A DNA stretch of 64,000 nt, taken from assembly GCA_000002445.1 (NCBI GenBank), contig CM000207.1:384001-448000 (forward strand), written 5' to 3'. Both the position numbers and the translations under genes were made by a program. This DNA is from Trypanosoma brucei. Its lineage: Eukaryota. This document shows positions 1 to 53,909 of the stretch, piece by piece. The notes below the pieces were generated by a model. The model saw only the letters and a list, made by a program, of their open reading frames with translations. It had not been told where the DNA came from and did no database searches. Positions within the stretch are counted from its first letter, which is position 1. Every line of letters begins with the position of its first letter.

Positions 1-124
1 ACGACTTAAGGGCATCAAATAGTATTTTGTACTTACCAGACCGAATCATGTCGTCAATCAGAAGTGTGACTTTCTTGGCTGCACTAATGGGACCACAACC
101 CCTGTCCGCGGGCTCAGCCGCCAT
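1..124 (-). CDS. N-terminal fragment of an unidentified protein; the ORF runs off the left edge of the window
   Basis: The reverse complement of 1-124 translates as MAAEPADRGCGPISAAKKVTLLIDDMIRSGKYKILFDALKS with ATG at 122-124. The frame stays open upstream to a second ATG at 374-376 (stop at 404-406), so the true start is ambiguous. The position fits the next gene downstream in the minus-strand polycistron. Confidence 0.3.
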   Translation of the reverse strand, partial: MAAEPADRGCGPISAAKKVTLLIDDMIRSGKYKILFDALKS

Positions 125-17833: not shown

Positions 17834-19011
17834 CTTACTTTTGTAATATACCAACCTGATCTTCCCTCACCTTCCCCCTTTCCTCTTCCTTATTTACAAA
17901 TAGTGATCCGTACTGTTTCCCTTCCTCTCTCCCTGATTAGTCACTATTCCTCCCCCTCAATTCCTTCCGTTCTTGAGCGGATGTCCCTTTTTCTCTAGAT
18001 GAATGTGCCGGAACAAACTTTTTGCCGGGCAGTCTCTTGTCGTGTTGCGTGCCCCCTTTCAGTTACCATGCAACGTAAGACAACAGTAGCAGGTGGGAAG
18101 TACAAATGGACAACAGAAACGAGACGGGACAACAACGAATATCCCCTCTCTACGACTCCGTCGTACACTCCGTCTTCCTTTTTTGGTTTGTTTCTCACCC
18201 TGCTGCAATAACGGAAGTAGCCACCAAAAAAAAATCGGAGCCCAAGAAATTAAAGAAAGGCAAAGATGCAAATGTGACGAAAGCGGTAGGAAATCGAAAC
18301 AGCAACTTGGGTTAGGATGAACAGAGCGAAAAGGAAAGGTGGCACATAGGTATTCACAGCCGTGGGCCTCAATTTATGAGAAGGAGGTGAAAGAACATGT
18401 TAAACAGAAAAAAGTGTAAGCACTTCAGCACGAAAAAGTGGAAACCTAAGGTGTGGTAGACAACAAAAAAACGCTAAAACAAAAAAGAATTAGGTCCACG
18501 CACACTTGCGCTTGTGTAAAACAGTCTCCGAGATAACAACTCCTAAAAAGGAACAAAAGAACGGGGCATGGAAAACAAAAAACAAGTGAAAACGGTCCTC
18601 AGTATACGTAACGGTGAGGAAGGACGTGATGTACCCGCTCCGACGGCCACGCATCCCGCACTGACAGGAGAGAGGTGGGAGTGGGGAAGAGTGCGAATCA
18701 ATCGTGACACACATCACGGAAGGGGCACCACATATGCCACAGCAACAGAAAACATATTTTGCGCCCTGAGAGACACATATCGCCTTGCGGTGGGCCCCCA
18801 GGCACCCTCAGGTGTAGACACACACGACGGAGTTTGTGAGTTTACTATAAACAAAGAAAATAAAAAAGAGAATCGGCAACCAACATTTCGCTTCCTTCCT
18901 CCGATCTAGGGTCCCCGTCAAAACCTCTAGTGGGAAAAGAAAAGTGAGGCAACGATCACGACAATGCTACAGAAGAAAGACATAAAATGGAAATGAGGCG
19001 GCGTCCCAGTC

Positions 19012-22000: not shown

Positions 22001-25000
22001 CAGCTCATCCTATCTCCAGCGCCAACGAGTTTCGCCTCTGCCACACCAACATGCTTCTCCTCGGGTAACCACAAAGTCTCCTTCTGGCACTGTTCGCATA
22101 AGTACCGTGACTCAAACTGAATGAAAGAAATGTACTCACGCATTTTCCCGCACTGAGTGCAAAACGCTTGCTTGTTGTCGCTAACTGTTGATGCATCAGT
22201 AGAACCCAAACACAAGCGCATGTTGCCACACGTCGTACATACTTTGTTGTGATTTGAATTAAAGGCGTAGCTGCACAACATGCATGTCCACGTGGCTCCT
22301 GGGCGTGCTGTGGTGCACATTGCGCAGCGTGTAGAGTCTGAAAGGTTAATGAACGTGCACACTGCGCACGTCCACTCTTCCTCCGCCCTGTTAACATTGT
22401 TTGGTCTTTCCATACACTTGTACACGCAACGCCCACGCAAATGGTGACTTGAAACGTACTTCCCGCTAAAAGAAAAGGGTCCATGGGTATCAGCTCCTTC
22501 GCCTTCAACCTCATTTCCCGCGGTGACACGCAAAGTTACACAGACGCCCTCCTCAACCAGGAGCCACTCACAGGCGAAGCCAACAAAGGGAGAGGGAAGA
22601 CCGAGTCGCTGCATTACATGGTGAAGGGTTACACAAAGACTGTACGGGGCGGCGTGGCCCTCGCCCGCACAGTGGCCCCATTCCTCATCACAGACCGGAC
22701 AGCGGAGGTATACGATTTTTTCCGCCTCACCGGCATGCTCGTCTGCACGGGCATTGCCATCATCCGATCCACCCTCGCCACACTCGCTATATACATTATC
22801 ATCAATATCTTTCTTGTTGGAAATAGTCATACAGAGCTTGTCGTTGTCCGGTAACAACATCAACTCGTTCCACGCCTCCAACAAAATCTGCGACCCGTTA
22901 GGATGAACAGTATCCGGCATGGCCAGTATGCGAATGAATTGGCTTAACAACAGCCGCTGCGTCTCTTTGTCCCACAGTGTTACCTCCCCCATGTCTAACT
23001 CTGACAGAAGTCGAAGTGCGCAAATAAACGTTTTCGTCGAGTGGATGTAAACGATCTCATTGTTGTGCTCATCTGTGGTAAAACTAATAGACCTTGATAA
23101 GACACCCATAATCTCATTCGCAAGTAACCCCAGGGGAAGATCACCACTTACCACCGATTCATAATTTGGTTCTATTGCTACAGCAGGAACCGTGATGCTT
23201 CCACTACCACCTTCTCCTAAAACAATTTCGGCAAGAGAGCCCTTCTGTCTCACCAAGCGGACATCGAACGACCCTTTAATCTCTCCACGCGGCGGTCCAG
23301 TATAGGTAAACGACATTTCATCCCCGTCAGCACCCAAAACTTGAAGAGCCACAATTTCGTCCTGTCTCAACATTTGGGAAAGAAGCGGCACTAGAACAGA
23401 ATCCCAGCAACTGAGCATCGCCCGCATAACAAGTCGGGCACGGATGCCCGTTTCACAGGGCATGTACATCCACGAAGAAGTGGCGTCTTTATTATACATC
23501 TCCACAAACGGAAAGACAACCTTCACAGCAGATGGAATGTTTGTATAGAGAGTTCCCAATGGTAACTCATTGCGCCCAAAAGATATGCACCGTGCCTTTG
23601 TGTCAACTGTAACGGTAATTATATCACCTGAGCCAAAGATAATGCCATCTTTCTTCAGCATCCAGTGCTTAGAGTGTCGAAATAATTCAACACGGGCAGA
23701 TGGTGCCTCGACATCCGCAAAGTAATCCGTTATCGCGTAAACATGGTTCATGTCTTGCCGCGTTCCAGGATGTTGCTCAAGTTCTGTGCTTGTGGGGAGC
23801 GAATCATGGCAAGCAACGCCAACGTAGTAAAGGCGACCAAGAGAATCAAACTCAAAACCTCGTCTAACACGTACGGAAAACGACACAACATCGCCCAACG
23901 AACCGTCCAAAGGTATACCTTGTGATGCGAAGGAGGTGGTGTTCTGCACACCCCGGGAACTGCACTCCTCCGCTGTCAGTGATTTAACATGTCGACCGCC
24001 TGAAACAACGCGGAGGTCAGTTGCCGCGCTCGTTGTTGTGAAAAATGGTTTGTATACAGGGGCAGTAACCTGTCGAGAGAGTTGGCAGCAGCAATCCCAC
24101 AAGGGTATTGGATTGTACGTGGTGATGTCGAAGTTGCGGCCCGGTTCCTGCAGCACGACGTGTATTGTTGTCAGTGCTGCGCATCGTGCGCGCTCACCAG
24201 CCTCCTCACAGCAGACCACCTTTGTTAACGTACTGAGTATGTCCGCTGGGTGGGAAGAACAGTAAATTGCGGTACGCATAATGGTGATGTAGTCCATGAG
24301 AAAGCGGTGGTACACAAAAGAGGCAGCGCTCCGTTTCACTCGTTCAGTAGCATCATTAACATCATCAAGGAGTGAGAGATGCTTGATAGAATCAATAAGG
24401 CTTTCCACATTTTGACGCAGCCTGCAACAGCAACCGTCAATGAACCCCCTCCATGCCTCCTCGGAGTGGATGTGCCTTCTGCCAGAAGCGGTCCGATTCT
24501 TCACTTGCAACGAAGAGGAGGTGGGAGGGCTACTAACTCCACTTACCGACCGGTGAGCCTGAGCAAATCGCCGAGTACAGAGAGAAATCAAATAGGCGAA
24601 AACGAGAGTCGCGAACATAGAAATAAAGTGGCGGGTGGGTAGGCAATCACTACAAATTGATGCATCCCCTTTTCCTACCAAGCTGGCTGCGACAGTGGCA
24701 TCAATCGAACCAAGAACACTCAGCTCATCTGACCTAAACGAAATCCGAACGGCTTTCCCTTCCAAAGATAGTGAATCCGTAACGCCCACAAGAAGGTACA
24801 GCGCACGTGGGGGCGCTGGGAAAGAGGCAAAGCAGACGCCGTTCACAAGCAAACAAACCGCGCGCGTGGAAGTTTTGGGCGAAAAAGGGAAGCAAAACGT
24901 AACCCTGTCACCACGGGAAAGGGGCGGCAGAGAAAACACACGGTTTGCGTGACGAAGTTTTCCGCTGTGTGGTTCAAAATAAAACCCCAGTGGATCGCCT

Positions 25001-27945
25001 TCAACAATGTTACTCGTCACACCTGGGTGCTGTCCTGATGCGAGGGCAACAATCAACTCCTTTGACGGCATCGCCGTCAGGTTAATATCTGCGGCGTAGA
25101 GCATTGAAGAGGCAGCATTTGACGACGAAACGAGCGGCGGCGGCCGTGGTGATGAAAGCACCGAGGAAGGAAGAGTAGACGATATTGAAACGGTAGTTGA
25201 CGACAAGGAGAAAAGCTGAATGCTGGGAAAATACAACGGGGTGGAAGTGCTGCAAGCAGGTTCCCGGCCAGAAGGAACCCAGACGCCCAAACCACGCTCG
25301 CTGGCGCCGACCATGGTGAGCCCAACGAAGGTACCACCGTCATTCCCACCGTCACATTGCACCCTATCCCCTGTTTGTCCGCCATGTCTATGGACATCGC
25401 AATCCCCTATAAGGGCCCGCACGGACTCAATCACACTGTTCTCCTCCACTTCGTCCACCTTAAACGACGCAGTGCGCGCAAAATCGGTGAAACTGGGGAG
25501 GAGTCCCTCTACCTGACTAATAATTTTGTCCCAGATAAAGTCCAAATCCCTCTCATCCAACGGCGTTGCAAGTAGCGAAAGACTAATGAGCGCGAACGGA
25601 CCAAATTTATCCGTATCCCACAGGAACCGATGGGGCCCAAGTCTCCGCTGTTCTCCCTCAGGCATTGACATTACGTGCTGAAGCGCGGCAAATACGGCAG
25701 TGAACAATCGGTGTACCAAAACACGAATCTGTTCAGTCAAAACCTCTCCACAACCACTGAACCGCATCAGGTAGTGGTCACTTTCGTACATCATGAGGTC
25801 GCGAAGGAGGCTCACTACGCGGAACATATCCTGCGGAACGAAGCTTTCCTCCGCGCGCAGCAAAAGAAGCAAGGCACTTATGCACGTTCTCGCTCGCTCA
25901 GATTGTGTTGACAGATAATCACGCAGCTGAGCAACAGTAGCGGTGGATGAAAGAAGAGCAACGGTTCCTTCCACAATCTGCGTTGTTGACAGCTTGCAGG
26001 ATGATGCATGCTCGGAAGCAAACGCAGCCACGTCGGTGGCATCGGGATTCCCCCCAATCACACTGCTCGCAAGGCTAACGCGCTTCACAACATCCTGCCA
26101 AACCCATGACCCCCATGTTACTTGATCCGGCTCCCGCTCAGCAATGATGCTTCCAATCATACATAGCGCGGCACGAACGCCCCGCACATCACTCTGACGG
26201 CAAGAAATTCGCCTTCGCAGAGCACCGTCATCCATTTTTGCTATTTCCTTCAGCAGCGGTGGCAATTCCCTTGTCTCCACCCGAGGTTGCAGACCATTTG
26301 AGAACAGCATGATCGATTCCTCCCTCAGGTTTGTTGCGACGGGTGGACACTTTATTTGCTGCAGGAGATGGGTGGCGATTTCTAACTGGGCAGAACTTAA
26401 GGCGGCTCGAAACTCCTCTGCCCACCGACCATTCACTTCCACACACATCTCCAGCCGCACCTCCGCCTCCAACATAGGAACTCGAGCGCCTTCGTAACCC
26501 CTGCGGTACCTCAAGACACAACTGCAACCACCAATAAGTTCATGGGTCGCCTCCTCAACCGGCTCAAACCAAACTACGTTGGTTGATCGACGCGTCTCAC
26601 CGGCATCATCGCCGGTGCTCCCACCCCCAAGGGATGCATGCGGAATTAGTGCAATCTGCACATCATCACAATTTAACGCTTTCCGGACATGTACAGTGAC
26701 CTTCCGCGCCAGGGGAGCCACCAGAAACACTTCCGTTGTCTTCGCTAGCTCACTAGCAGGTGGGTTAAGTTCTAACGATCCGGCTTGTACCTTCGGCAGT
26801 TCAGTTTCAGCTGCACTAGTCCTTATTGCCGAGGGCTCATCTAGTCCCACCGGTAAGCGTCCCTCACCCAGTTGTGTATTTGAGGGAGACACCGAAGTCG
26901 ACTCGTTACGAGGTCCCACCTCAAGAGAGAGTACATACTTGGTCACGAAAGTCGCGGTTGACAACGAGCCGCGATTGGAACCACAGGGACGGGGTGGTCC
27001 CCGAACTCTTTCCAATATATGCGCCACATCCGCCGTGTCAGCCTCATCCAGCTTTGTGAAGCGCGTGATGTGAAGGATTGGCAGCACTACGTTGAAACCA
27101 AATATATCATTCTCCCCAGGAGTTTTGGATGACTCATTCCACCGGTCGAGCACCTCGCGTAGAATGCCAAGAAAAGCCACGGCGCTCCTTTTGTGGTGCA
27201 GCGCTTGCCCAGACAGGGATGCAGCTGTTGATACGAGCTGTTTTTGGCCATCGTTCTGCGGGGACGCCACCACCTCAACCATCTCCCTAATCCTCCCCTG
27301 CAGCCAACGCTCGTCTTGTCTCCCCTTAAGGTATGGAACCACCCAATTTAACGGGGCAAATCCTCGTCTTTCAGGGCTTACCATGGCTTCGCCACGAGGA
27401 ACATCTACACAGATTAAGGCCGATTCCGACAATCGACGTTGTGTCTTCTGGTTCATTGCTTCCCCACTGCCAGGCGCCCGACGCTCATTACATACGGACG
27501 AACTTTGCACCTCTAACTGACTGGATGGTAGCGTCGGATTTTCGAGGCATTGCTCTTGTGGAACCACGGCAGCTCTTTCACGTATAGATTGCAGCGCCTT
27601 TTGAAAGAGGGACGCACGCAACCAGTGACATGTCACCTGGTCCCAGCAAAACTCTGGGCGGACTGTTCTAACTATTTCAGCCACAGTATCATATATGACG
27701 CGGGCAAGCTGCATATCATCATTGTCGGACTGCGATACGCACGGCACCTTGAGCGGCCTAGCGCCCAAAGAGGCATCAAGGCCGAACTGAAGAAGCGGCC
27801 AAGCCAATTGGCAAAGGCGGTCAAGTGGAATGCTCATCATGTCGGCAATGGGGAAATCGATCACCTCCCCCGACGTAAGGCAGTGGCGAACGAAGCGACC
27901 CTGTGTCTGCTCTGGGAGTTCACCGGTTTGTTGCGACGTAATCAT
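19012..27945 (-). CDS. giant HECT-domain E3 ubiquitin ligase (~2977 aa) with two B30.2/SPRY domains and two RanBP2-type zinc fingers
   Basis: The C-terminus reads ...PTAHTCSPISLLLQPYSSAATMREKLEVSLHHMYEFGFV, matching the HECT C-lobe consensus LPxAHTCFNxLxLPxYxSxExLxxKLxxAI..GFG with the catalytic Cys retained. Two SPRY-like segments are present (GRYYYEVV...GWGT...SWGFNCQ...GDIIGTLLDLD...CWSVNGEE...YPYVS and ...GDIITVTVDTKARCISFGRNELPLG...VFPFVEMY). Two W-x-C-x2-C...N...C-x2-C RanBP2-type fingers are present (WTCAVCTFINLSDSTRCAMC and WTCMLCSYAFNSNHNKVCTTC). The track start at 28026 is GTG, and the first ATG is at 27943-27945 (MITSQQTG...). Confidence 0.85.
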   Translation of the reverse strand: MITSQQTGELPEQTQGRFVRHCLTSGEVIDFPIADMMSIPLDRLCQLAWPLLQFGLDASLGARPLKVPCVSQSDNDDMQLARVIYDTVAEIVRTVRPEFCWDQVTCHWLRASLFQKALQSIRERAAVVPQEQCLENPTLPSSQLEVQSSSVCNERRAPGSGEAMNQKTQRRLSESALICVDVPRGEAMVSPERRGFAPLNWVVPYLKGRQDERWLQGRIREMVEVVASPQNDGQKQLVSTAASLSGQALHHKRSAVAFLGILREVLDRWNESSKTPGENDIFGFNVVLPILHITRFTKLDEADTADVAHILERVRGPPRPCGSNRGSLSTATFVTKYVLSLEVGPRNESTSVSPSNTQLGEGRLPVGLDEPSAIRTSAAETELPKVQAGSLELNPPASELAKTTEVFLVAPLARKVTVHVRKALNCDDVQIALIPHASLGGGSTGDDAGETRRSTNVVWFEPVEEATHELIGGCSCVLRYRRGYEGARVPMLEAEVRLEMCVEVNGRWAEEFRAALSSAQLEIATHLLQQIKCPPVATNLREESIMLFSNGLQPRVETRELPPLLKEIAKMDDGALRRRISCRQSDVRGVRAALCMIGSIIAEREPDQVTWGSWVWQDVVKRVSLASSVIGGNPDATDVAAFASEHASSCKLSTTQIVEGTVALLSSTATVAQLRDYLSTQSERARTCISALLLLLRAEESFVPQDMFRVVSLLRDLMMYESDHYLMRFSGCGEVLTEQIRVLVHRLFTAVFAALQHVMSMPEGEQRRLGPHRFLWDTDKFGPFALISLSLLATPLDERDLDFIWDKIISQVEGLLPSFTDFARTASFKVDEVEENSVIESVRALIGDCDVHRHGGQTGDRVQCDGGNDGGTFVGLTMVGASERGLGVWVPSGREPACSTSTPLYFPSIQLFSLSSTTVSISSTLPSSVLSSPRPPPLVSSSNAASSMLYAADINLTAMPSKELIVALASGQHPGVTSNIVEGDPLGFYFEPHSGKLRHANRVFSLPPLSRGDRVTFCFPFSPKTSTRAVCLLVNGVCFASFPAPPRALYLLVGVTDSLSLEGKAVRISFRSDELSVLGSIDATVAASLVGKGDASICSDCLPTRHFISMFATLVFAYLISLCTRRFAQAHRSVSGVSSPPTSSSLQVKNRTASGRRHIHSEEAWRGFIDGCCCRLRQNVESLIDSIKHLSLLDDVNDATERVKRSAASFVYHRFLMDYITIMRTAIYCSSHPADILSTLTKVVCCEEAGERARCAALTTIHVVLQEPGRNFDITTYNPIPLWDCCCQLSRQVTAPVYKPFFTTTSAATDLRVVSGGRHVKSLTAEECSSRGVQNTTSFASQGIPLDGSLGDVVSFSVRVRRGFEFDSLGRLYYVGVACHDSLPTSTELEQHPGTRQDMNHVYAITDYFADVEAPSARVELFRHSKHWMLKKDGIIFGSGDIITVTVDTKARCISFGRNELPLGTLYTNIPSAVKVVFPFVEMYNKDATSSWMYMPCETGIRARLVMRAMLSCWDSVLVPLLSQMLRQDEIVALQVLGADGDEMSFTYTGPPRGEIKGSFDVRLVRQKGSLAEIVLGEGGSGSITVPAVAIEPNYESVVSGDLPLGLLANEIMGVLSRSISFTTDEHNNEIVYIHSTKTFICALRLLSELDMGEVTLWDKETQRLLLSQFIRILAMPDTVHPNGSQILLEAWNELMLLPDNDKLCMTISNKKDIDDNVYSECGEGGSDDGNARADEHAGEAEKIVYLRCPVCDEEWGHCAGEGHAAPYSLCVTLHHVMQRLGLPSPFVGFACEWLLVEEGVCVTLRVTAGNEVEGEGADTHGPFSFSGKYVSSHHLRGRCVYKCMERPNNVNRAEEEWTCAVCTFINLSDSTRCAMCTTARPGATWTCMLCSYAFNSNHNKVCTTCGNMRLCLGSTDASTVSDNKQAFCTQCGKMREYISFIQFESRYLCEQCQKETLWLPEEKHVGVAEAKLVGAGDRMSWFVSFGSEKQSYTDMKSTAYSFRKMLDAVLAVSPQAGDLTRYVPPLMHSSDDDGQFESGCLSLKVNPIQEQKQDGRGYRAVIPAIIYFCSRIVCSWGPNLAPKGLAKFSVLCRLRVIEDTWLTQLRKVTTDAAQSIFTSCLQILLSGKRSEQMVWSLSSIARVLMNCNTPFQKQRHYLLYALSLNAVRGGGDRTFREVCYAALNLLLEEASGQKLNVQCLREVITMVPVVANQQQLMVHASLRGVNASISADVTLTSWLIEVGERMERSQRLPALFDEPSPDTFPYVVELPDTRMGSGGELIVGQVRGSVGVLGNKGGRYYYEVVLPPNFDERGKTIVMGWGTIQHEVVSSGQHVGSDIHSWGFNCQDRLRIMTGEQALVTPRPIVGGDIIGTLLDLDTMMMCWSVNGEELTWIAVSTQGKGEAIYPYVSAAMDPHGVLVRLSYTQFKPEGYKDFSPGCGEEGGRLESSVKPQCFDFYVQLCDLVNDVVNCGFTVDSLAETDTWMEGGREALRNYPLLSSEVGGGSLYKLKPYLQHLRSINSLAVSVAKSHNIFRNSQFLMRNYEKVRRLLFFAARWAIVERQIDRRLLRNNVKRHRHVLIDLKEAKGVLEHGETLDFITLFDKSVTGQLFHQTHDADIYRDAVMFTTRLSGEVADDAGGVTRSVVSMMCDELQYREDEGGRRMEPLLPFFKLSSHSTMVTLVPNIDFYRSNPNHRQLFLQFFTWFGKLIGNITLSGYVMLSITLPRLVWMFLTFDEVTVKDYYADIDDSVRGALEDDDFLLNDEFYYSIPVIEWGLVCAASDTVGALRSKRSLAPAFPKGCFSEGAVVTSQGLCKSIEVERRRTEVGRALVHQYDELLSAMRLGVTSVVPSHSLQLIRWDDLQQRVCGSPCATAEDVMSSLDVSLLTKAVCDMLVEVVRGMSNRQRAMFLLFCSGQRRVPLPEKVQVSCGDDPAAVPTAHTCSPISLLLQPYSSAATMREKLEVSLHHMYEFGFV

Positions 27946-27965
27946 TTCAGAAAGCAAACAATGCA

Positions 27966-28000
27966 CTGAAGGAACAATAACCCCCCCCAAAAAAAAAACA
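27966..28000 (-). promoter_or_regulatory. putative trans-splicing signal for the HECT gene: a T10 polypyrimidine tract followed by an AG acceptor about 20 nt upstream of the ATG
   Basis: The minus strand reads TGTTTTTTTTTTGGGGGGGGTTATTGTTCCTTCAG|TGCATTGTTTGCTTTCTGAA-ATG. The AG corresponds to plus-strand CT at 27966-27967. This is pattern-based only, with no RNA evidence. Confidence 0.35.
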
Positions 28001-28149
28001 AGATGACGAATCAACAGGGTCGGCACGGAGCGAAATGAAATGTCGATCCCTAAGTAAAAAAAAACAAACTTACTTCTACCAGTTTGTTTTCGTTGACGAC
28101 CACCACTGCCCCCTTAGTTACACTACTAACCGATGCTGGTATACGTGTA

Positions 28150-45131: not shown

Positions 45132-45953
45132 CTACTTCCAAGTTAAAGAATAAAGATCATGACGGACTCCACTCAGTATTGGAATCATGTTTCTTGTTGT
45201 TTTGACCATGTTTATGTCCAAATCCGCATCAAAATAAGTTTCTCCCTCATCAGCCATGGCAATTACCCTCCCCATTGGGTCCACAATTATCGAATGACCC
45301 CATGCCACGTACTCTCCCCCTGCATCACGAGCAGGGGAACACATGATAACAAACTGTTGGTTGTCCACAGCACGAGACTTGGCAGCGATTTCCCAGTGCG
45401 CTGGCCCAGTTACCATGTTAAACGCAGCGGGGTAAACCAGGAAAGAGGTTCCCTCCGCTGCGTACTTCCACGCCAAAAACGGAAACCGCACATCAAAACA
45501 TATACCAAGTCCGAACTTTACGTCGCCCTCGATAGTGACGGGTGTGGCGTCCGATCCCGCAGAGAGGACTTCTCCCTCATCCATTTTGAGTGTATCGGTA
45601 TTGATTCGAAAGAGGTGGACCTTGCGGTGGATATGCTTTAAGTCTCCTCTAGGGTCGAATACCATCGCCGAGTTAAACAGCTTCCCTTCCAACCTTTCCG
45701 GTATGCTCCCTGCAACAACCCAAACCGAGTTCTCCCTTGCTACTTTGGACATAGCATCAAATGTAGGAAACCCCGCTTGTACCTCCTCCGAATACTCCGC
45801 GAAGTACTTCGTCCCATATGGGCAATTGAAGCACTCGGGCAACACCACAAAGTCAGTACCGCGCTTCGCTGCAGCAGCAATCATTTCCACAGCTTTGCGA
45901 ATATTGGCTTCCTTGGACTTACCAACAGTCATCTGACACAAAGTAACGCGCAT
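45132..45953 (-). CDS. NIT2: nitrilase-superfamily omega-amidase (NIT2-like carbon-nitrogen hydrolase), 273 aa
   Basis: The Glu-Lys-Cys triad context is conserved: VVLPECFNCPYG (Glu), HRKVHLF (Lys), GLGICFDVRFP (Cys). The overall fold order matches Nit2/omega-amidase. ATG at 45951-45953 verified. Confidence 0.85.
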   Translation of the reverse strand: MRVTLCQMTVGKSKEANIRKAVEMIAAAAKRGTDFVVLPECFNCPYGTKYFAEYSEEVQAGFPTFDAMSKVARENSVWVVAGSIPERLEGKLFNSAMVFDPRGDLKHIHRKVHLFRINTDTLKMDEGEVLSAGSDATPVTIEGDVKFGLGICFDVRFPFLAWKYAAEGTSFLVYPAAFNMVTGPAHWEIAAKSRAVDNQQFVIMCSPARDAGGEYVAWGHSIIVDPMGRVIAMADEGETYFDADLDINMVKTTRNMIPILSGVRHDLYSLTWK

Positions 45954-46882
45954 TCTGACTTACCTCCCCCTTTAACTCCTAGTGGAACCAATATTTTGTG
46001 TTTGTCCTATTGTATTTCTAGTTTTTTCTTTTTTGTAATCGTATAAATTGATTTATCCCTTCGCAGTAACAAATGATGTCTGAAGCCCCTTTATTACCTC
46101 CTCTAACTGAAAGGTCCTTGAAAAGCTTAGACAAGATCGAAGAGGAATATTTTCCATTATAGTATCTACGGCGCTTCTCGAAGGAAGTCTCATCGAATTA
46201 TGCATTACAAAACAAACCAGAAAGTAAGCACAACAAATTCATTAGTCACATAGCACTTTATACAGGCAGCTGCGCATGTTACGCCAATGCAACCATACTT
46301 GATAACGGTGAAGGAAGAGCGGCTTCTCCACAAAAAACTCCAGGGTCGATCATACACAAGACCCCGTCCACGGTTCCACTGGGCCGGTTCGTCGTAAAGA
46401 CACTCGCTATTGCAGTGCAGAAAATATAAGATAACTTAAAGCAGCGGGCACACAATCACAGCAACAACGCCTTGTGTGCATAAAACCGGGGGGAAAAGCA
46501 GCGACGCAACGTTAATCTAGCGCATTCATGTAGCATTTTCTGCTGCTGACGCAAGCGTTCACGTAGCATTCCCCAGTGAACTTCCCTACTAGTCACTTTT
46601 GCAAAACAAAAAAATCGACACCACCTTGCAACTCCCAATAAATCACAAAACCGACTCAAATATTGCTCAAACACCACAAAGCCATCTTCGCGCAGTGCCA
46701 GGGTCCAGCACCCCGCCTCATCGGGGGAAGCCAAGAGTCAGCAGAGTTCCTTTCATGGGGAACACTGCTGTGCTCCGGCTACGGCATCATACAGCACAGG
46801 GATCAGCAGCGTCTTGCTGGGACACCGTTTTTTATTTGTCGATCCCTGGGCACGTGCCATCAGTAGTATCATCCGCACTAAG

Positions 46883-47473
46883 ATGCTGCTGTCCGGTGAT
46901 GTGGAAGAGAATCCCGGCCCGTCGTTTCGCGGGATGCAGTGGAACTGCGCCGGGCTATCTCAAGGAAAGAGATTAGCACTCCACAAAACCCTTGTTGATG
47001 AGCGGATTGCCTTTTGTCTGTTGAGCGAGACAAGGATGACGCCTGGAGAGGCGGCTTGCTTTAGCGTTGCTGGCTACCAACATCACGTAATAGCTCGTAA
47101 CTGCAAAGGAGGTGCTATATCAATACTAGTGAGGGAGGACCTGCCAGTCGAGACCGGTATGGTCGTCGTTGGTCGCATTGAACAAGTGCATGCAACAATT
47201 CACCTTGCACGTGGAACGGCGCTGACTGTCACGTCGGCACACATCCCACCAAAACACACCTTCACGGCAACTGACCTAGATACGCTTCTGACGACTGACG
47301 GTGCCCAGCTCATCGGTGCAGACGCTAACGCACACGCGTTGGCATGGGATCGCGCGAGCCCACCAAATACCAAGGGTGAAACCCTCACACAGTGGTGCAT
47401 TGACAACCAGTTTCTGGTCTGCAACACTGGTGAGTGCACAAGATACGCGCCACCACGGGGAGTCCACCCCTGA
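46883..47473 (+). pseudogene. retroelement ORF fragment carrying the N-terminal 2A peptide and an AP-endonuclease domain (frame A), terminated by a frameshift
   Basis: MLLSGDVEENPGPSFRGMQWNCAGLSQGKR...ISILVREDL...LTVTSAHIPP... is an endonuclease/exonuclease/phosphatase-fold sequence. The frame stops at 47473, while the continuation is in another frame opening at 47301. Confidence 0.8.
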
Positions 47474-49640
47474 TGTGACACTGTCAAGGAATTGTAGAGT
47501 GTACACGTGGATATCGCTGTATTCTCCCGATAGCGATCACCATCACATATTTTTCGACGTTATCGTTGGAGACGAAACAGATGCGCTGAGCTGCCCGCGG
47601 CCTCGAAAGCCCATGTACGCATGGCTAAAAGCTGACTGGAGGAATTTCCGTCTGAAGGTTGACGAGTACTGCAGGAAAATTGGTAGAAAGAAGAACGTCA
47701 ACACCCTGGAACAGAAATTGAGCTCCGCCATCCGCATTGCGACGAAGGTCTCCGTCCCCCGTGGCTGCAGAGCAACGCCACCACATTGGACACCTGCGCT
47801 CGCGAAACTCGATGAAGAGATCGCTGGATGCGGACCCTCCCACCGAAGGGAAAAGTTGGTAGCCACGCGTAAGCAGATCCTGGACCGTACCACAAAGAAG
47901 AGATGGAGCACGCTATGCTCCAGACTTGCGGTGTCAGACCGCTGCAGTTGGCACATTGTCAAGAAGGTATATGCACCACGACCACTAACCACACCGGCGG
48001 CGCTGGTTGATAACGCGGCCATCACGGACTACCGTCAAGCTGAGAGGTTCATTAAACTGTACTCGTCCCGCGCAAGAAGACACCCCGACTCACACCCACC
48101 GGCACCCATAAAGACGACAGCGAGTGAGTTCAGTCCCATCACGATGGCTGAACTACGGAGATCGATCAAACTGCTACCGAGTGGATCCGCAGCCGGACCT
48201 GATTGCTTATACAACGAGGCACTACAACATATCGGTAGAACAGCGCTGAATGTTGTTCTGAGGCTATTCAACGAGAGCCTACGAACGGGAGTCGTGCCGC
48301 CTGCATGGAAGACTGGTGTTATCATCCCCATCCTGAAGGCCGGAAAAAAGGCGGAGGACCTCAAATCTTACAGGCCTATGACACTCACGAGCTGTCTCTG
48401 CAAAGTCATGGAACGCATAATTGCCGCGAGGCTTAGAGACACTGTTGAGTCCCAGCTGACGCCGCAGCAATCAGGCTTTCGCCCCGGATGCTCAACGCTC
48501 GAACAACTCCTGCACGTCCGTGCTGCCCTCTGCCGTCCCACGCACCAATATCGTACGGGTGCTGTATTCGTCGACTACTCGAAGGCATTCGATACAGTAG
48601 ACCATGACAAAATTGCGAGGGAAATGCACAGAATGAAGGCATCACCCCACATTGTGAAGTGGTGCGTATCATTTCCGAGTAACCGAACTGGCAGAGTGAG
48701 ATTCAAGGAGAAGCTTTCCAGAAGCAGAACATTTGAGCGAGGAGTGCCACAAGGAACTGTCCTTGGCCCAATCATGTTCATTATTGTCATGAACTCGTTG
48801 AGCCAATGCCTTGCAGAAGTGCCGTTACTGCAGCACGGATTCTTTGCAGACGACCTAACGCTACTTGCGAGGCACACAGAGAGGGATGTCATCAACCACA
48901 CGCTACAATGCGGCCTAAACGTGGTGTTACAGTGGTCAAAAGAGTACTTCATGTCTATCAATGTAGCGAAAACAAAGTTCACACTCTTCGGGTGTATAGA
49001 GCGCCACCCCCTTACATTACAACTGGACGGCGAAAGAATAGGAGCTGACAGGACACCGAAGCTTCTAGGAGTAACATTCCAGTGTCTGCAAGGGATGGCA
49101 ACACATGCGACCGAAACGGGACGCAAGATGGACTTCAGACTACTGCAGATAGCGGCCATCTCAGCTTCTACATGGGGGCCAAGAAGACAAGTACTGAGAG
49201 CTTTTTATCTAGCACTCGTACAGGCACACACCATGTATGGCATTGAGGTATGGTACTGGTATGCTTGGAAACGAAGTCGCGACCTCCTTGCAGCAGCGCA
49301 ACACAAAGCCAGTCGCATCATAGCTGGCATACCGCATGGGACGCGCGAAGAGGACTCTCTGCTGGAAGAAAACCTCCTGCCACTCAAGACGACCACTCTT
49401 GTGCGCAGCATGAAATTCATGCTGATGTGTGAGTCACGAGGCGGATGTTTGCGCTGCAGTGCTGAGGAAGTATACCGCAGCAAACACCCAGTCAGAGCCC
49501 TACATTCCCGCAGCATGCGGTCCTACCCCCACCTCCGCATTGAGCCATGGAAACAACCACTTTGGCCGGCGGTTCTTCAATGTAACTGCAGGACGATATT
49601 TTACACATGGGACAAGCCCGTGGGCAACGGGCACCCCTGA
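47301..49640 (+). pseudogene. retroelement ORF fragment with the endonuclease C-terminus and a reverse-transcriptase domain (frame B)
   Basis: 779-aa frame with LINE-type RT motifs (PILKAGKK, FRPGCST, YSKAFDTVDH, FADDLTLLA). It is offset from the upstream endonuclease frame and truncated before the C-terminal RNaseH-like and zinc-finger region expected in intact ingi/L1Tc. Confidence 0.8.
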
Positions 49641-51248
49641 CGATATGAAAAAGGAAGCTTCTGAGAAATGTGTAAAAAGCAAACGCAAAAGACAAATGGA
49701 GGAGGGTTCATACGCCGAAAAAAATAGGGATATTCAATAAGATGGACTCAAAAGTTTCAACAGATGGTGAGTTTAGGCAGTTCGTCCGGCGCAGAAATGG
49801 TAATCTTCGGCAACATGGAAAAATACAGAATTAAAGGGATAGCGGAATATTGGGATGCAGTCATTGTGCGGAAGCAGTGCCAATGGAAAAGATGCTAAAC
49901 ACGGTACTGGACACAATGAAAGGCAGAGTCGCGTGGAGGATGGAATCCCGAGCCGCGTATGGAAGGGTGATTTTCACAGTCAGTTAAAAGAATGAGGTGA
50001 TTTCTATGCAGCTTATTTTCTTCCACCACGTTGTTTGGAAAGAGAGTGCAATATCAGATGAGATTACAGTCAAAAACAACTGCAGAAAGGCACACCTAAC
50101 GTGTAAAGTTGATATTTTGGTGGGAGACATGAAACAGAAGCGTAACAAAAGAACACGCTGCATTCGAAGCTGGATAAGGGCGAAACGCGCACAGCAGTCT
50201 TGGCGGCACTCAACTCGACCCGAGGAAGCTGCAACCCACCAGCATGGAGAAAATTATATCCGACTTGTTCCGTGCAGGTGCCCCCAAGCACCTTGTGCGA
50301 TTCCGAAGGACTACCGTTCCTAATAAGCAGGGGAACAAATGCGGATGCCACAGCATTCAAGAAGAAATTGAGAGAAAACGGCCCTACACATATCGAAAGA
50401 ACTAGGCGCAACGTGGCTATTCCTGAACTTAGAGGGAAGAATTCGGCTTCTGGTGACGTTGCCAGAGTGCAGTTTGATATGATAATGACGACATGCGGCG
50501 GACAACCACGCGGTAAAAAGGCACGATCATATGGTATTCTTCACTGATATGTTAAACGTGAAGTACACGGACAAACATGAGGGAGTAACCATATCAGGAA
50601 AGGTGAGCAGAAGGAAGCGGAGGGAATAAGAAGGTTAGCGCCGTGAAGGTGCAACGGTGCTTCCCTGGTGGCGGAAGAGTTGCTGGAAATATGGGCGGCG
50701 AAACCATCACATTGCGTCCAAACGTAATGCTAATGGGAGGGACTCCGTACGGCAAAGCAATGTGGGGAGGGGGACGGAATGCAGCAGCCATAAGAACGTT
50801 TACAGAAGAGGGAACGAGGATATTAACCGTGCCATTTGAACATCACACTCTATTGGCGTGTTTAAGTTCACGTCTCAAAAAGGTTGGTCTGGCGAGGCGC
50901 CTGTGATGAGTGCGCGGTTGCGGAGGGAAGTCCGCGACCATTAAAAAACCAGGGTCCCAAAGACCCTCCGGCGGTCCGCACAGAAAGTCAGCAGTACAAA
51001 CGCTAGGGAATAAAATAGGGCACGTGAGTGCAGGAGAGCAGCAGCTACGCTCGCACGTAAAACTGGCAGCGTTCCAACTGAAGCTCTACAGGTCGCTGAA
51101 CGGGCACAAAACCATCATCGCGGACAACGGAACGGAATCAAAGGAAAGGAGCTGTCCAATGACCTCTCGCCTTCTTTTGGCAACCATTCTCGACCCTACT
51201 CCACAGCAGTATCGCACTCTTGAACGGCGTCAAAGGTTCCCTGCCTAA
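49641..51248 (+). pseudogene. fragmented remnants of the retroelement C-terminal coding region (several short plus-strand ORFs in different frames)
   Basis: Plus-strand ORFs at 49997-50323, 50200-50547, 50643-50906 and 50910-51248 are broken by stops and frameshifts, consistent with a decayed ingi/L1Tc 3' half. Confidence 0.5.
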
Positions 51249-51980
51249 ATGAACGCGTTTTCAAGGTAATCGAAGGTTGTCCAGTGGCTTCGGGGGTGCA
51301 CGTGTGCGAAGCGGTCTTACTTGCTCGAGGTTTTGTATAATGAAGTGGTTTTCACTGTGATGGGGCACCGACGGCCGCACAGGTTAAGCGCCTAACTTGA
51401 AAAAGTATTTACTCTCTTTTTTTTTTTTTTGCATCAACCTTTACTAACTGTTGATTGCAATGCACTGCCGCCATTGAGCTACCTAATCGCACTGCTGTGC
51501 CGTGGTGGGGGATTTCCCCTCTCCGTGGTTGGTGCCTTTTTGTAAACATCAACAAACGGTAGTGGAGGTGGTGTTAGGGAGAAACGTACCAACAGTTTAC
51601 GAAGGGGTAAGGAGAGATGCAGTCAGCCGGGAACGACGATAGTGTCCGATCCGGTTCATGACTGAGGGAACGAGAGAACATGCGACACAGGACGCCCACT
51701 TCGCAATTTTTTTAAAAAATTGGTGCGTGTTTATAACTATAAGCAAAACACTTGTAATTGTTCACTCATGTGGGTGCGCACTACCCACATATCTGTCTAG
51801 GAAGAGGTAAAAGACGTGGGAAATATGATTTTCATGAAGCTGAATCTCGGTGGCGCTTGAGGACGGAAATCGCCTTCCCACCGCGGTTTGTAGACTGTAT
51901 GGCTTTTCCTCCCTTAGTAGCAATCGCTGCACACGTACACACACAAAAAAAAAAGGAACATTAGACCGAGAATCTTCCGA

Positions 51981-53909
51981 TTATTCACTCAGTACCTTAA
52001 CAAACTCATTCGGCCGAAGCAAGGACGTCCCTCCAATGATAAACTCGCACCCAAGTTTCTTTGTTGCCTCATACGCTGCTCGAATTTCACTGAAGGTAAT
52101 TCCACCCAACACAAAAAATACGAAGCGCTGTTTGCTCGACCGCCCACCAACGTTCCCAGTGCCCGCCAAATCGTGTACTGCCTTCGGTAGCGGGGGGAGC
52201 GCGGCAATAGCGGCGAGAGGTTTTTCACTGGCGCTGCTAAGCGTATCGCTTATGGCGGATCCTTTGTCACTCCATAACGCACTCGACCCCAGAGCCACAC
52301 GCAATGACTTTTTTGTGTTCGCACCGCCGGAAGGGGCGGTATTGGAAGTGGCATCCCCGCTGGACTCATCTGACCGTGTCACATACTTATAGTCCGCCGT
52401 GTCAAGTTTGTTCCCTGCCAAGGCTTCCATAATCTGATATGTCTGCGTGATGAAAGGGTCTTTTTCCGCCGAAGTTTTTGCATTCCGCCCCTCGGGATTA
52501 AGTTTTCCTACTCTGCTCGTCAGTTGTTCTAGTTTAGAGAAGGCGCCAGCTACCTCCGTTAGTTCTGACTGTTTGATAAGCGTTTGTTTCTTTGCCTCTG
52601 AGTATTCAGAGGTGTCAGTTGCAGCGGACAGCAACAAAAGCAGCCGCAGTCGCACATCCCTCGGCACTGCCTGATCCTTTATGATGTGCCGCACCGTTTC
52701 AAAGTTCGTTTTGAACGACTTACGACCAGCAGCTATATCCTGCTCTGCTTCGCAGACAACATCGAGGCATTGTTCCCGATAAAGATTAAAAATTTTTGTG
52801 CAGATATCAATGTGTACAGACAACCTTCCTTGATCCTTCTGAAACGTAGAGAGCACCCGCGTGACATTGCTAAGTTCCGTGATGCTTGGTGATGCTTCCC
52901 TCGTGTTAACCAGATGGGGATTCTCATTGTGGAGTTTCTTGAGTTCTGCAGGAAACTCTTCCATGCACTCGGCGAAAAACCGATGTCGGTACTGACACCA
53001 GTAGGGGTCCTCTTCATCGACGGAGAGTTCACGCGTGGAGCGCTCCCCCGAGCGTGTTTCAAACTTTTGCACGTACATATCGTTTTCGAGGGGCATCAAA
53101 TCTTCCAGTAAACATTGGTATGTTCTGTGGTGCATCAGCGGGGTAACGGTGTCGAACGACCTATCGAGAATAATCAACACGGGTTTACTGCTGTCCACCC
53201 CGTCGTCGTCAACCCCATTTTCAAAGTTTGGTACACTGATGGCCAACTTGGCCAGTTCGTCTAGCAGTAATCGAGAGAATACCTCGCAGCTCTGGCTTCT
53301 CCCCTGGGCGCGGACAACAGGAATACCACCTCCCATTGCATGAAGTACTTGTGTTAGCCGCGCTGCGGCTTCAGACAGAAAACTCTCACACTGTGGTGAC
53401 TGCATGGGTAACATCAGTCTTGATAAATCATTCTGCATATTGAAGTGGAAGACTAATCGCTCGGGGACCAAGAAATTCAGCATCATATCTTTAAAACCGG
53501 TCACTCTCTGCGCAACTCTTGCGCGCGCAAGTCGTTGCATGTAACTGTCAGGGGTCGTTCCCAGGGCAAAAAGGTGAACCTCCTTGTACGGGTCCTTTTC
53601 TTCCCAGTCATCAATGATGCGCTCCACCGACTCGTCGTTGGGATCAAAGAAGTACATGGCGGGTAGGCAGATTAAGGGTTGCCGTTTCTTTTTAAGGTCC
53701 TCCACTAACGCGACTCCATGTTCCATGAGGTCATTCATTCTCGCAAAACTATTGAGAACCACCGCTGAGGGGGGGTCGCAAATGATAACTTTATATTTCC
53801 CGGGAACGGCGTCTAGCATGTTTTTAAACACATACCTTTGCACGCAGCTGCGTATGCCCGGACTTTCAGGCGGTTTCTGTTTCGACAGCTTTGCATGGTT
53901 GCTCATCAT
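51981..53909 (-). CDS. Sec1/Munc18 (SM) family protein, 642 aa; subfamily not resolved (exocytic Sec1/Munc18-like or Vps45-like)
   Basis: KVIICDPPSAVVLNSFARMNDLMEHGVALVEDLKKKRQPLICLPAMYFFDPNDESVERIIDDW aligns with the SM-family domain-1 consensus (KVLVVD..S.R.LSS.CKM.DI...GIT.VEDI.K.REPLP...AVYLI.P...SV..LI.DF). The C-terminus ...FIIGGTSLLRPNEFVKVLSE is SM-like. ATG at 53907-53909 verified. Confidence 0.82.
   Translation of the reverse strand: MMSNHAKLSKQKPPESPGIRSCVQRYVFKNMLDAVPGKYKVIICDPPSAVVLNSFARMNDLMEHGVALVEDLKKKRQPLICLPAMYFFDPNDESVERIIDDWEEKDPYKEVHLFALGTTPDSYMQRLARARVAQRVTGFKDMMLNFLVPERLVFHFNMQNDLSRLMLPMQSPQCESFLSEAAARLTQVLHAMGGGIPVVRAQGRSQSCEVFSRLLLDELAKLAISVPNFENGVDDDGVDSSKPVLIILDRSFDTVTPLMHHRTYQCLLEDLMPLENDMYVQKFETRSGERSTRELSVDEEDPYWCQYRHRFFAECMEEFPAELKKLHNENPHLVNTREASPSITELSNVTRVLSTFQKDQGRLSVHIDICTKIFNLYREQCLDVVCEAEQDIAAGRKSFKTNFETVRHIIKDQAVPRDVRLRLLLLLSAATDTSEYSEAKKQTLIKQSELTEVAGAFSKLEQLTSRVGKLNPEGRNAKTSAEKDPFITQTYQIMEALAGNKLDTADYKYVTRSDESSGDATSNTAPSGGANTKKSLRVALGSSALWSDKGSAISDTLSSASEKPLAAIAALPPLPKAVHDLAGTGNVGGRSSKQRFVFFVLGGITFSEIRAAYEATKKLGCEFIIGGTSLLRPNEFVKVLSE

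What the first reader, a model, noticed from the sequence alone, without database searches (positions are those of the whole stretch)
46845..51954. Degenerate ingi/L1Tc-type LINE inserted antisense in a polycistron, ending 26 nt past the stop codon of the SM-family gene
A 5.1-kb plus-strand element is the only plus-strand coding-like feature in 64 kb of minus-strand genes. It has a Pr77-like 5' hallmark, a 2A peptide, an APE endonuclease, a reverse-transcriptase domain and an A10 tail. The A-tail (51945-51954) lies just 26 nt downstream of the stop codon (51981-51983) of the Sec1/Munc18-family gene, so the element occupies essentially the whole 3' flank of that gene. The coding part is broken by at least one frameshift between the endonuclease and RT frames (around 47300-47473), and the C-terminal third is shattered. 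This is therefore a non-autonomous copy. No flanking target-site duplication was recognisable, which suggests an old insertion or recombined ends.
Basis: partly seen in the sequence, partly recalled or inferred. Interest (0 to 1): 0.5.

Follow-up and report, generated by a model that had tools for sequence, protein, structure and literature searches.

The report
Dead ingi retroposon, half old, half refreshed
This is a dead copy of the known Trypanosoma brucei "ingi" jumping gene lying backwards between two housekeeping genes; its front 2.9 kb still looks like a modern ingi while its back half is an ancient wreck, most likely because other ingi copies have repeatedly overwritten the front.

Summary
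The window is Trypanozoon (T. brucei group) DNA. The + strand feature between the Sec1/syntaxin-binding-protein gene and a nitrilase gene is a real ingi-clade non-LTR retroposon. It has a 2A peptide, an APE endonuclease and a reverse transcriptase (Pfam RVT_1, 151 bits).

1. The Pr77 signature lies at about 46668-46745, not 46845. The CCCTGG at 46845 is an internal ingi motif.
2. The frameshift is a 2-bp deletion at 47445/47446.
3. The element is a mosaic. Positions 46695-49546 are 95.2% identical to canonical 5255-bp ingi (nt 28-2890). Identity then collapses in register to 56% and then to noise.
4. Positions 49770-50524 hold a very old, decayed RNase H/zinc-finger relic: about 30% amino-acid identity, 10 frameshifts, 4 stops.
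5. Positions 50573-51954 cannot be assigned to the element. The A10 "tail" follows a polymorphic (AC)n and fits only by length.

Between strains the flanks differ by about 1.6% but the ingi-like part by 3-5%, and T. b. gambiense has its junction about 90 nt further 3'. This favours recurrent gene conversion of an old DIRE by ingi copies. In two other assemblies the element is split by 35-53 kb of VSG-bearing DNA. The family is known and the locus is of modest interest.

The parts
46668..46694 (+). Projected first 27 nt of the element (5' part of the Pr77 region). It is decayed, and the same sequence is present in all strains examined.
   Evidence: In register with ingi nt 2-27 but only 11/26 identical. 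GCCATCTTCGCGCAGTGCC in the window corresponds to GCCACCTCAACGTGGTGCC in ingi. The junction with flanking DNA is identical in the gambiense and IVM-t1 nitrilase-side pieces.
46695..46745 (+). Conserved part of the Pr77 / 79-nt ingi-clade 5' signature (GTGCCAGGGTCCAG...CATCGGGGGAAGCCAAGAG).
   Evidence: blastn-short of ingi nt 1-79 matches 46695-46737 at 90.7% (E 2e-10). It is the only such match in the 64 kb. No Rfam ribozyme hit.
46695..49546 (+). Young, ingi-like tract, equal to canonical Tbingi nt 28-2890.
   Evidence: 2714/2850 = 95.2% identity to the 5255-bp ingi at L002 4514-9768. dN/dS against two ingi copies is 0.44-0.59, like ingi against ingi at 0.43. A T. equiperdum OVI contig breaks at 49467, close to the edge of this repeat-like tract at 49546.
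46883..46921 (+). Start codon and N-terminal 2A peptide, MLLSGDVEENPGP.
   Evidence: Read from the sequence and the ORF translation. The motif D(V/I)ExNPGP is intact.
46934..47549 (+). APE-type endonuclease domain, interrupted by the frameshift.
   Evidence: Pfam Exo_endo_phos and Exo_endo_phos_2 match. After restoring 2 nt, Exo_endo_phos_2 scores 41.2 bits, E 1.7e-10, over profile positions 2-116/117.
47445..47446 (+). Site of the 2-bp deletion (CG in ingi) that splits the ORF. It is private to this haplotype.
   Evidence: Alignments to ingi and to the gambiense and IVM-t1 copies. All other copies carry the two bases.
48351..49079 (+). Reverse-transcriptase domain, inside the open 779-aa frame 47301-49640.
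   Evidence: Pfam RVT_1, E 3.2e-44, 151.5 bits. The best database hit is a T. b. equiperdum ingi reverse transcriptase, 90% identity.
49547..49700 (+). In-register transition zone from young to old sequence.
   Evidence: Identity falls from 95.2% to 56.2% without an indel. In T. b. gambiense the ingi-like sequence runs about 90 nt further, to about 49636.
49770..50524 (+). Ancient decayed RNase H, FRxGxxKH...CxC motif and C2H2 finger relic (DIRE-like part).
   Evidence: Frameshift-aware alignment to P0003 (Tv/Tco-ingi type) scores 148. Controls: shuffles 57 +/- 9 (maximum 86), minus strand 49, reversed protein 51. There are 77/261 identities, 10 frameshifts and 4 stops. phmmer gives iE 6e-6 for 49673-49921. 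Tbingi scores 110 and L1Tc gives nothing. Pfam does not recognise it.
50573..51944 (.). Unassigned 1.4 kb. It may be the fully decayed 3' end of the old element, native intergenic or Sec1 3'-UTR DNA, or both.
   Evidence: No signal against the ingi C-terminus (53 against shuffles 47 +/- 7) or the ingi 3' 900 nt (14 against 12.6 +/- 1.3). It is 98-100% conserved among Trypanozoon strains.
51930..51954 (+). (AC)n followed by A10: the candidate remnant of the poly(A) tail.
   Evidence: The run is present. (AC)n and A-run lengths differ between strains. The position fits canonical ingi geometry within about 60 nt (inference).
51981..53909 (-). Sec1/Munc18-family (syntaxin-binding protein 1) gene: the upstream gene of the polycistron.
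   Evidence: Pfam Sec1, E 4e-102. The protein exactly matches T. equiperdum SCU70162.
45132..45953 (-). Nitrilase (CN hydrolase) gene: the next gene downstream in the polycistron.
   Evidence: Pfam CN_hydrolase, E 3e-56. The protein exactly matches T. b. brucei TREU927 EAN76308.

Best explanation
[quoted passage not shown] Its 5' 2.85 kb (46695-49546) was later overwritten, probably more than once, by ectopic gene conversion from Tbingi copies elsewhere in the genome. That part therefore still looks like a modern ingi: 2A, APE, RT and a 779-aa open frame.

The extreme 5' 27 nt and everything 3' of about 49546 lie outside the convertible homology and kept decaying. The copy in this window then acquired a private 2-bp deletion.

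The element is dead. It has no usable RNase H or zinc-finger region, no intact Pr77 start and a split ORF. Its likely effects are passive:
- It fills the 3' flank of Sec1.
- Read-through of the polycistron makes antisense ingi RNA, a plausible siRNA substrate.
- It offers 2.9 kb of homology for ectopic recombination.

Shown: the domains, the mosaic, the in-register junction and the strain differences. Inferred: gene conversion as the mechanism, the age of the old part, the 3' end at A10 and any RNA-level effect.
For: - Identity to canonical ingi is 95.2% over 46695-49546, then 56% and then about 42%, with no indel at the switch.
- The protein alignment crosses the junction in frame: KPVATGTPDDMKKEASEKC aligns with KPVCTDDPDDLKREASEK.
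- The 3' part is a co-linear ingi-clade RNase H/zinc-finger relic, z about 6.5-10 against shuffles, with 10 frameshifts and 4 stops in 0.75 kb. The 5' part has one frameshift in 2.76 kb.
- The same mosaic sits at the same site in T. equiperdum OVI, T. b. equiperdum IVM-t1 and T. b. gambiense.
- Between haplotypes the unique flanks differ by 1.56-1.68%. The ingi-like tract differs by 5.1% over 46695-47300 and 2.9-3.7% over 47301-48363, which is as much as between unrelated ingi copies.
- The haplotype-B 5' piece resembles a different ingi subtype (I2, 2.8% divergence) from the one the window copy resembles.
- The gambiense junction lies about 90 nt further 3', with a cluster of I2-type variants at 49293-49517.
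- dN/dS of 0.44-0.59 against real ingi copies suggests the 5' tract derives from lineages that were under selection, meaning active ingi.
- No ingi-like sequence was found downstream of Sec1 in T. theileri or T. vivax.
Against: - Only two full ingi references were available, so donors and conversion tracts could not be mapped formally.
- The gambiense assembly has a 100-N scaffold gap inside the element. Repeat-induced consensus errors could inflate divergence or shift its junction.
- The old part scores better against Tv/Tco-type ingi than against Tbingi (148 against 110). If it belongs to another subclade, homology-driven conversion would have been harder to start.
- No TSD and no insertion-site signature were found to anchor the original insertion.
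- The copy number of the old part in the genome was not measured.
Confidence: 0.7

Rival explanations
1. The chimera arose in a single retrotransposition. Reverse transcription started on the RNA of an already degenerate DIRE and jumped, in register, to a Tbingi RNA. The mosaic would then have been inserted as such and merely drifted afterwards.
For: The junction is in register at a stretch of residual homology. Length is conserved: 5.29 kb from 46668 to 51954 against 5255 bp for ingi. A terminal A-run exists.
Against: It does not explain why orthologous copies differ three times more in the ingi-like tract than in the flanks. It also does not explain why they resemble different ingi subtypes, or why the gambiense junction differs. 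No TSD was found. The first 27 nt are decayed although the next 2.85 kb are not.
Confidence: 0.1
2. The structure arose from two elements and a deletion. A Tbingi recombined with, or inserted beside, an old DIRE, and unequal crossing-over between them removed what lay in between. That could include the 35-53 kb VSG-bearing segment seen in other strains. It would leave one hybrid element without any later conversion.
For: In gambiense and IVM-t1 the element exists as two pieces in direct orientation overlapping by 1.05 kb (window 47308-48363), separated by 35-53 kb. Recombination between them would give exactly the contiguous element of this window.
Against: The young/old junction near 49546 is already present in the Sec1-side piece of the split haplotype, so the mosaic predates or is independent of that rearrangement. 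The window copy shows no single switch from nitrilase-side-like to Sec1-side-like variants in the overlap; both differ by about 3.5%.
Confidence: 0.12
3. The pattern is an assembly artefact. The ingi-like tract, or its contiguity with both flanks, is a collapse or consensus of reads from many ingi copies, and the true locus differs.
For: ingi is a high-copy repeat. The OVI short-read contig stops at 49467, near the tract's edge at 49546. The gambiense scaffold has a gap there. Two other assemblies place 35-53 kb between the two halves.
Against: The window copy carries about 40 private variants spread along the tract, including the 2-bp deletion, that occur in no other copy examined. The old/young junction is identical in three independent assemblies. 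The 5' junction with unique DNA is shared by all.
Confidence: 0.06

Closest known systems
Tbingi (T. brucei ingi, 5.25-kb autonomous non-LTR retroposon; ingi4 subclade in PMC3820030)
   Same: Positions 46695-49546 are 95.2% identical to ingi nt 28-2890. They share the same N-terminal 2A peptide, APE and RT, the same domain order and nearly the same overall length.
   Different: There is no similarity to ingi nt 2891-5255 and no RIME-B 3' half. The first 27 nt are decayed. The ORF is split by a 2-bp deletion. No 12-bp TSD and no ingi4 upstream motif were found.
TbDIRE (degenerate ingi/L1Tc-related elements, ~5 kb, extinct; PMC3820030)
   Same: Positions 49547-50572 behave like a DIRE. They hold a co-linear ingi-clade coding relic riddled with frameshifts and stops. 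The relic is closest to the Tv/Tco-ingi type, to which one described TbDIRE group is related. The element also sits at a synteny break.
   Different: More than half of the element is not degenerate at all. It has 95% identity to active-type ingi and a 779-aa open frame. I did not see this described for DIREs in the papers I could read. The key survey, Bringaud et al. 2009 (Eukaryot Cell 8:1532), was not available.
L1Tc of T. cruzi
   Same: Same clade and architecture: Pr77, 2A, APE, RT, RNase H and a C2H2 finger.
   Different: The L1Tc C-terminus gives no signal on the old part. The element is clearly of the African-trypanosome ingi type, so the label 'L1Tc-type' holds only at clade level.
Non-allelic gene conversion among dispersed repeats (for example human Alu; PMC8230782)
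   Same: It works the same way: part of a resident old copy is replaced by sequence from younger paralogues. This gives mosaic ages and extra divergence between orthologous copies.
   Different: This is a resemblance of mechanism only and was inferred here from four assemblies. In the papers I could search I did not find it documented for ingi/DIRE.

Membership tests
ingi/L1Tc clade non-LTR retroposon | 76-79-nt 5' signature (Pr77 hallmark) | tested here: met
   ingi nt 28-70 match 46695-46737 at 90.7%, the only such match in the window. However, nt 1-27 are decayed, with 11/26 identical.
ingi/L1Tc clade non-LTR retroposon | N-terminal APE-type endonuclease | tested here: met
   Exo_endo_phos_2 scores 41.2 bits, E 1.7e-10, after frame restoration, and 28.2 bits as found.
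ingi/L1Tc clade non-LTR retroposon | Reverse-transcriptase domain | tested here: met
   RVT_1 scores 151 bits, E 3e-44. The nearest proteins are T. brucei, T. congolense and T. vivax ingi.
ingi/L1Tc clade non-LTR retroposon | RNase H domain followed by a C2H2 zinc-finger region | tested here: inconclusive
   Pfam finds nothing. A frameshift-aware alignment finds a decayed co-linear relic at 49770-50524, score 148 against shuffles 57 +/- 9.
ingi/L1Tc clade non-LTR retroposon | 3' poly(A) tail | tested here: inconclusive
   A10 is at 51945-51954, at about the expected distance. It follows a polymorphic (AC)n, and 1.4 kb of unassignable DNA separates it from the last recognisable element sequence.
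ingi/L1Tc clade non-LTR retroposon | Target-site duplication (~12 bp) and conserved upstream endonuclease motif | tested here: not met
   No flank repeat above the shuffle level. The best matches are 5/10 for the ingi4 motif and 5/6 for the ingi6 motif, at positions that do not fit the element start. This is expected for an old or recombined copy.
Tbingi (intact or simply truncated copy) | High nucleotide identity along the whole 5.25 kb, including the 3' RIME half | tested here: not met
   Only nt 28-2890 are similar. nt 2891-5255 are at noise level and there is no RIME-B match.
[quoted passage not shown] | ~5-kb ingi-related sequence with coding capacity destroyed by many frameshifts and stops | tested here: inconclusive
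   Met for 49547-50572, with 10 frameshifts and 4 stops. Not met for 46695-49546, with one frameshift and a 779-aa ORF.
2A self-cleaving (ribosome-skipping) peptide | C-terminal motif D(V/I)ExNPGP in frame with the downstream protein | tested here: met
   MLLSGDVEENPGP is at 46883-46921, in frame with the APE domain. Activity is not testable here.
HDV-like ribozyme L1TcRz within Pr77 | Match to an HDV-like ribozyme fold over the first 77 nt | tested here: not met
   No Rfam match at E <= 1 in 46400-52100. The first 27 nt are not conserved. I did not check whether Rfam holds a model for the trypanosomatid ribozyme.

The most novel reading that the evidence does not exclude
An extinct DIRE in the chromosome core is kept partly 'young' by repeated gene conversion from active ingi copies. 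Because of that retained homology, it acts as a recombination anchor through which a 35-53 kb VSG-bearing segment has been gained or lost between Trypanozoon haplotypes. Dead retroposons would then be maintained entry points for VSG-array DNA into housekeeping polycistrons.
Probability: 0.3. Interest if true: 0.5.

Novelty: new member of a known kind. Interest (0 to 1): 0.3.

Why it matters
For annotation, this is an ordinary dead ingi/DIRE copy and should be masked as such.

There are two modest points of wider interest:
1. It is a clean example of one retroposon copy with two ages joined in register. Dating insertions from divergence to a consensus would be wrong here by a large factor. The example suggests ingi copies evolve in concert by gene conversion.
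2. The same element marks a large structural polymorphism (35-53 kb with VSG genes) and a synteny break. This fits the idea that ingi-family homology shapes the boundary between core and VSG-array DNA in T. brucei.

Tried and rejected
- Rfam scans of the whole window (gathering thresholds) and of 46400-52100 (E <= 1) found nothing.
- The tandem-repeat scan of 45900-52100 found nothing.
- The L1Tc C-terminus gave no signal on the old part.
- A profile of ingi-clade C-termini was less sensitive than single-sequence comparison. Its best domain had iE 0.03.
- Pfam did not recognise the reconstructed RNase H relic.
- The TSD search and the ingi4/ingi6 insertion-motif scans were negative or uninformative.
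- T. theileri and T. vivax loci showed no ingi-like sequence near Sec1. Synteny is not conserved there, so they are not true 'empty sites'.
- T. cruzi synteny is also broken.
- No encoding contig was on record for the T. congolense ortholog, the TREU927 Sec1 protein or the window nitrilase protein.
- I first read the gambiense locus as a VSG rearrangement exactly at the ingi 5' end. I then found a 100-N scaffold gap inside the element, so that join is unreliable.
- I looked for a single crossover in the 1.05-kb overlap that would show the window copy is a recombinant of the two split pieces. No clear switch point was found.
- Bringaud et al. 2009 could not be read.
Full report
**Source and context**

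The two genes flanking the feature are a Sec1-family gene (51981-53909, -) and a nitrilase gene (45132-45953, -). Pfam gives Sec1 E 4e-102 and CN_hydrolase E 3e-56. Their proteins exactly match "syntaxin binding protein 1" of T. equiperdum and "nitrilase" of T. b. brucei TREU927. The window is therefore Trypanozoon (T. brucei group) DNA.

All large ORFs are on the - strand except the element. A few other + ORFs lie inside or antisense to - strand genes, or have no family match.

**Checking the observation**

- The ORF 46814-47473 carries ...MLLSGDVEENPGP (2A motif at 46898-46921) and matches APE-type endonuclease profiles.
- The ORF 47301-49640 (779 aa) matches RVT_1 at E 3e-44.
- Its best database relative is an ingi reverse transcriptase of T. 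b. equiperdum (90% identity), followed by T. congolense and T. vivax ingi proteins.
- Restoring two bases at 47445/47446 gives one 919-aa frame from the ATG at 46883. Exo_endo_phos_2 then rises to 41 bits and RVT_1 stays at 151 bits.

I fetched a canonical ingi as reference: L002 4514-9768, 5255 bp, starting CCCTGGCG and ending in A9. Against it, blastn aligns window 46695-49670 to ingi nt 28-3013 at 93.5%.

**Corrections at the 5' end**

The conserved Pr77 core (GTGCCAGGGTCCAG...CATCGGGGGAAGCCAAGAG) is at 46695-46745. This is the only Pr77-like match in the 64 kb. Ingi nt 1 projects to about 46668.

The first 27 nt are only 11/26 identical to ingi, yet they are in register. The same decayed start and the same junction with flanking DNA occur in T. 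b. gambiense and T. b. equiperdum IVM-t1.

**The mosaic**

| Window positions | Identity to ingi | Note |
|---|---|---|
| 46695-49546 | 95.2% (2714/2850) | young, ingi-like tract |
| 49547-49700 | 56.2% | no indel at the switch |
| 49701 onwards | about 42% | noise level |

These figures come from a global alignment to ingi. The reading frame continues across the switch.

I wrote a frameshift-tolerant protein-DNA aligner to probe the 3' part. Results for the + strand of 49700-51980:

| Query | Score | Shuffle mean +/- SD | Shuffle max | Minus strand | Reversed protein |
|---|---|---|---|---|---|
| P0003 (Tv/Tco-type ingi) C-terminus | 148 | 57 +/- 9 | 86 | 49 | 51 |
| P0001 (Tbingi) C-terminus | 110 | 60 +/- 8 | 85 | 81 | 57 |

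The best path covers 49770-50524 with 77/261 identities, 10 frameshifts and 4 stops. It passes through these recognisable motifs:
- AVEDAILRRIW aligned with AVEDGIPSRVW
- QFVFSHCGV aligned with QLIFFHHVV
- FRTGTSKH aligned with FRAGAPKH
- a C2H2 finger, CPLC...HLVKIH aligned with CPEC...HAVKRH

phmmer independently gives iE 6e-6 for 49673-49921. L1Tc gives nothing, and Pfam cannot see the relic.

So the "shattered third" is a much older, DIRE-like RNase H/zinc-finger remnant joined in register to a young ingi-like 5' tract.

**The 3' end**

Beyond about 50570 I found no similarity to the ingi C-terminus or to the ingi 3' 900 nt. There is no RIME-B half.

The A10 at 51945-51954 is real. It follows an (AC)n whose length, like that of the A-run, varies between strains.

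If the old element kept ingi geometry, its end would fall near 51890. This estimate takes the ORF remainder plus the 864-nt 3' region of ingi. The A10 is therefore a reasonable but unproven tail.

No TSD was found, and no convincing ingi4 or ingi6 upstream motif as given in PMC3820030.

**Other strains**

T. equiperdum OVI (L001) is essentially identical to the window from 54250 down to 49467. Its contig stops there, close to the edge of the repeat-like tract at 49546.

T. b. gambiense (L003) and T. b. equiperdum IVM-t1 (L007) carry the same old part and the same ingi-like tract downstream of Sec1.

Divergence from the window is uneven:

| Region | Divergence from the window |
|---|---|
| Genes and the old part | about 1-1.7% |
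| ingi-like tract, 47301-48363 | 2.9-3.7% |
| ingi-like tract, 46695-47300 | 5.1% |

The 5.1% figure is the same as between unrelated ingi copies.

In 46695-47300 the gambiense and IVM-t1 copy resembles a second ingi, I2 (2.8-3.1% divergence), while the window copy does not (6.6%). The window copy has about 40 private variants, including the 2-bp deletion.

The young/old junction is at 49546 in the window, OVI and IVM-t1. In gambiense it is near 49636, preceded by a cluster of I2-type variants.

dN/dS between the window tract and two ingi copies is 0.44-0.59, like ingi against ingi at 0.43. The tract looks like a sample of the ingi family rather than a copy that has only decayed in place.

**Mechanism**

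The simplest account is as follows:
1. An old antisense insertion decayed to a DIRE.
2. Its 5' 2.85 kb has been overwritten, probably repeatedly and differently in different lineages, by gene conversion from Tbingi copies.
3. The terminal 27 nt and the 3' part lie outside the homology that conversion can use, so they decayed.

The conversion mechanism itself is inferred.

Rivals are scored in the report sections:
- a one-step template-switch chimera
- a two-element recombinant formed by deletion
- an assembly artefact

Each explains the in-register junction. None explains well the excess, subtype-specific divergence between orthologous copies together with the shared outer junctions.

One caveat applies to the gambiense evidence. 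That scaffold has a 100-N gap inside the element, so its details need long-read confirmation.

**Function**

The element cannot transpose. It has a split ORF, no RNase H or zinc-finger region and a damaged Pr77 start.

Polycistronic transcription must read through it in antisense. ingi is a known source of siRNAs in T. brucei (PMC4721609). Whether this copy contributes, and where the Sec1 3' UTR ends, cannot be tested here.

**Wider context**

In gambiense and IVM-t1 the element is split into two pieces:
- The Sec1-side piece corresponds to window 51954 down to about 47300.
- The nitrilase-side piece corresponds to window 46695-48363.

The pieces overlap by 1.05 kb. Sec1 and nitrilase are 40.8 kb apart in gambiense and 59.4 kb apart in IVM-t1, against 6.0 kb in the window. 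The extra DNA carries VSG genes. IVM-t1 also has an inverted full-length ingi abutting the Sec1-side piece.

Downstream synteny also differs in other species:
- T. theileri has an extra gene and a 5.5-kb gene-free gap.
- T. vivax has unrelated genes with no family match.
- T. cruzi has a small-gene array, and an L1Tc lies upstream of Sec1.

None of them shows an ingi-like sequence between Sec1 and the next gene (T. cruzi by gene calls only). I could not retrieve the T. congolense locus.

**Verdict**

This is a real but ordinary member of a well-known family (ingi/DIRE).

The added value is the two-age, in-register mosaic with signs of recurrent gene conversion, and the association with a large VSG-bearing structural polymorphism. 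Interest is modest.

Noticed in passing
L007 (T. b. equiperdum IVM-t1) and L008; L003 and L009 (T. b. gambiense); corresponds to window 46695-48363 and 47300-51954: In these two assemblies the element is split into two direct-orientation pieces overlapping by 1.05 kb. Between them lie 35 kb (gambiense) or 53 kb (IVM-t1) of extra DNA that carries VSG genes. Sec1 and nitrilase are 6 kb apart in the window and 41-59 kb apart there.
   Followed up: partly
L007 16617-21869: A full-length ingi (95.1% to the L002 reference, nt 1-5254) lies inverted, head-to-head. It abuts the Sec1-side piece, which is truncated at ingi nt ~652.
   Followed up: partly
L003 16660-16759: The T. b. gambiense DAL972 chromosome 9 scaffold has a 100-N gap inside the element. 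The contig beyond it (ingi 5' end followed by VSG genes) is oriented opposite to the matching ingi in IVM-t1, so the scaffold join may be wrong.
   Followed up: partly
L008 about 7520-7600: A near-perfect palindrome (GCACGAGCTCTGAGCTGAAT...ATTCAGCTCAGAGCTCGTGC) sits directly at the truncated end (ingi nt 1706) of the nitrilase-side piece. This suggests a fold-back or inversion breakpoint.
   Followed up: no
window 51930-51954 and 51707-51719: Two simple-sequence tracts in the Sec1 3' flank vary in length between strains: (AC)n(A)n, and a T/A run that is A14 in gambiense.
   Followed up: partly
L005 12597-18920 (T. theileri): Between Sec1 and nitrilase, T. theileri has an extra 259-aa gene (faint MRP-S34 hit) that is absent from the window. 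It also has a 5.5-kb stretch without called genes. Only one tiny tblastx hit links that stretch to the window element.
   Followed up: partly
L006 1-4099 and 13920-21202 (T. cruzi): An L1Tc lies about 6 kb upstream of the T. cruzi Sec1 gene. Downstream there is an array of 128-139-aa genes spaced about 2.2 kb apart. The Sec1 gene therefore also sits at retroelement-associated synteny breaks in T. cruzi.
   Followed up: no
window 51417-51430: A T14 run (A14 on the gene strand) lies about 550 nt downstream of the Sec1 stop codon. Its relation to mRNA 3'-end formation is unknown.
   Followed up: no
window 4394-17854 and 19012-28026 (- strand): Two very long ORFs (4486 aa and 3004 aa) lie in the same polycistron. 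They were not examined.
   Followed up: no
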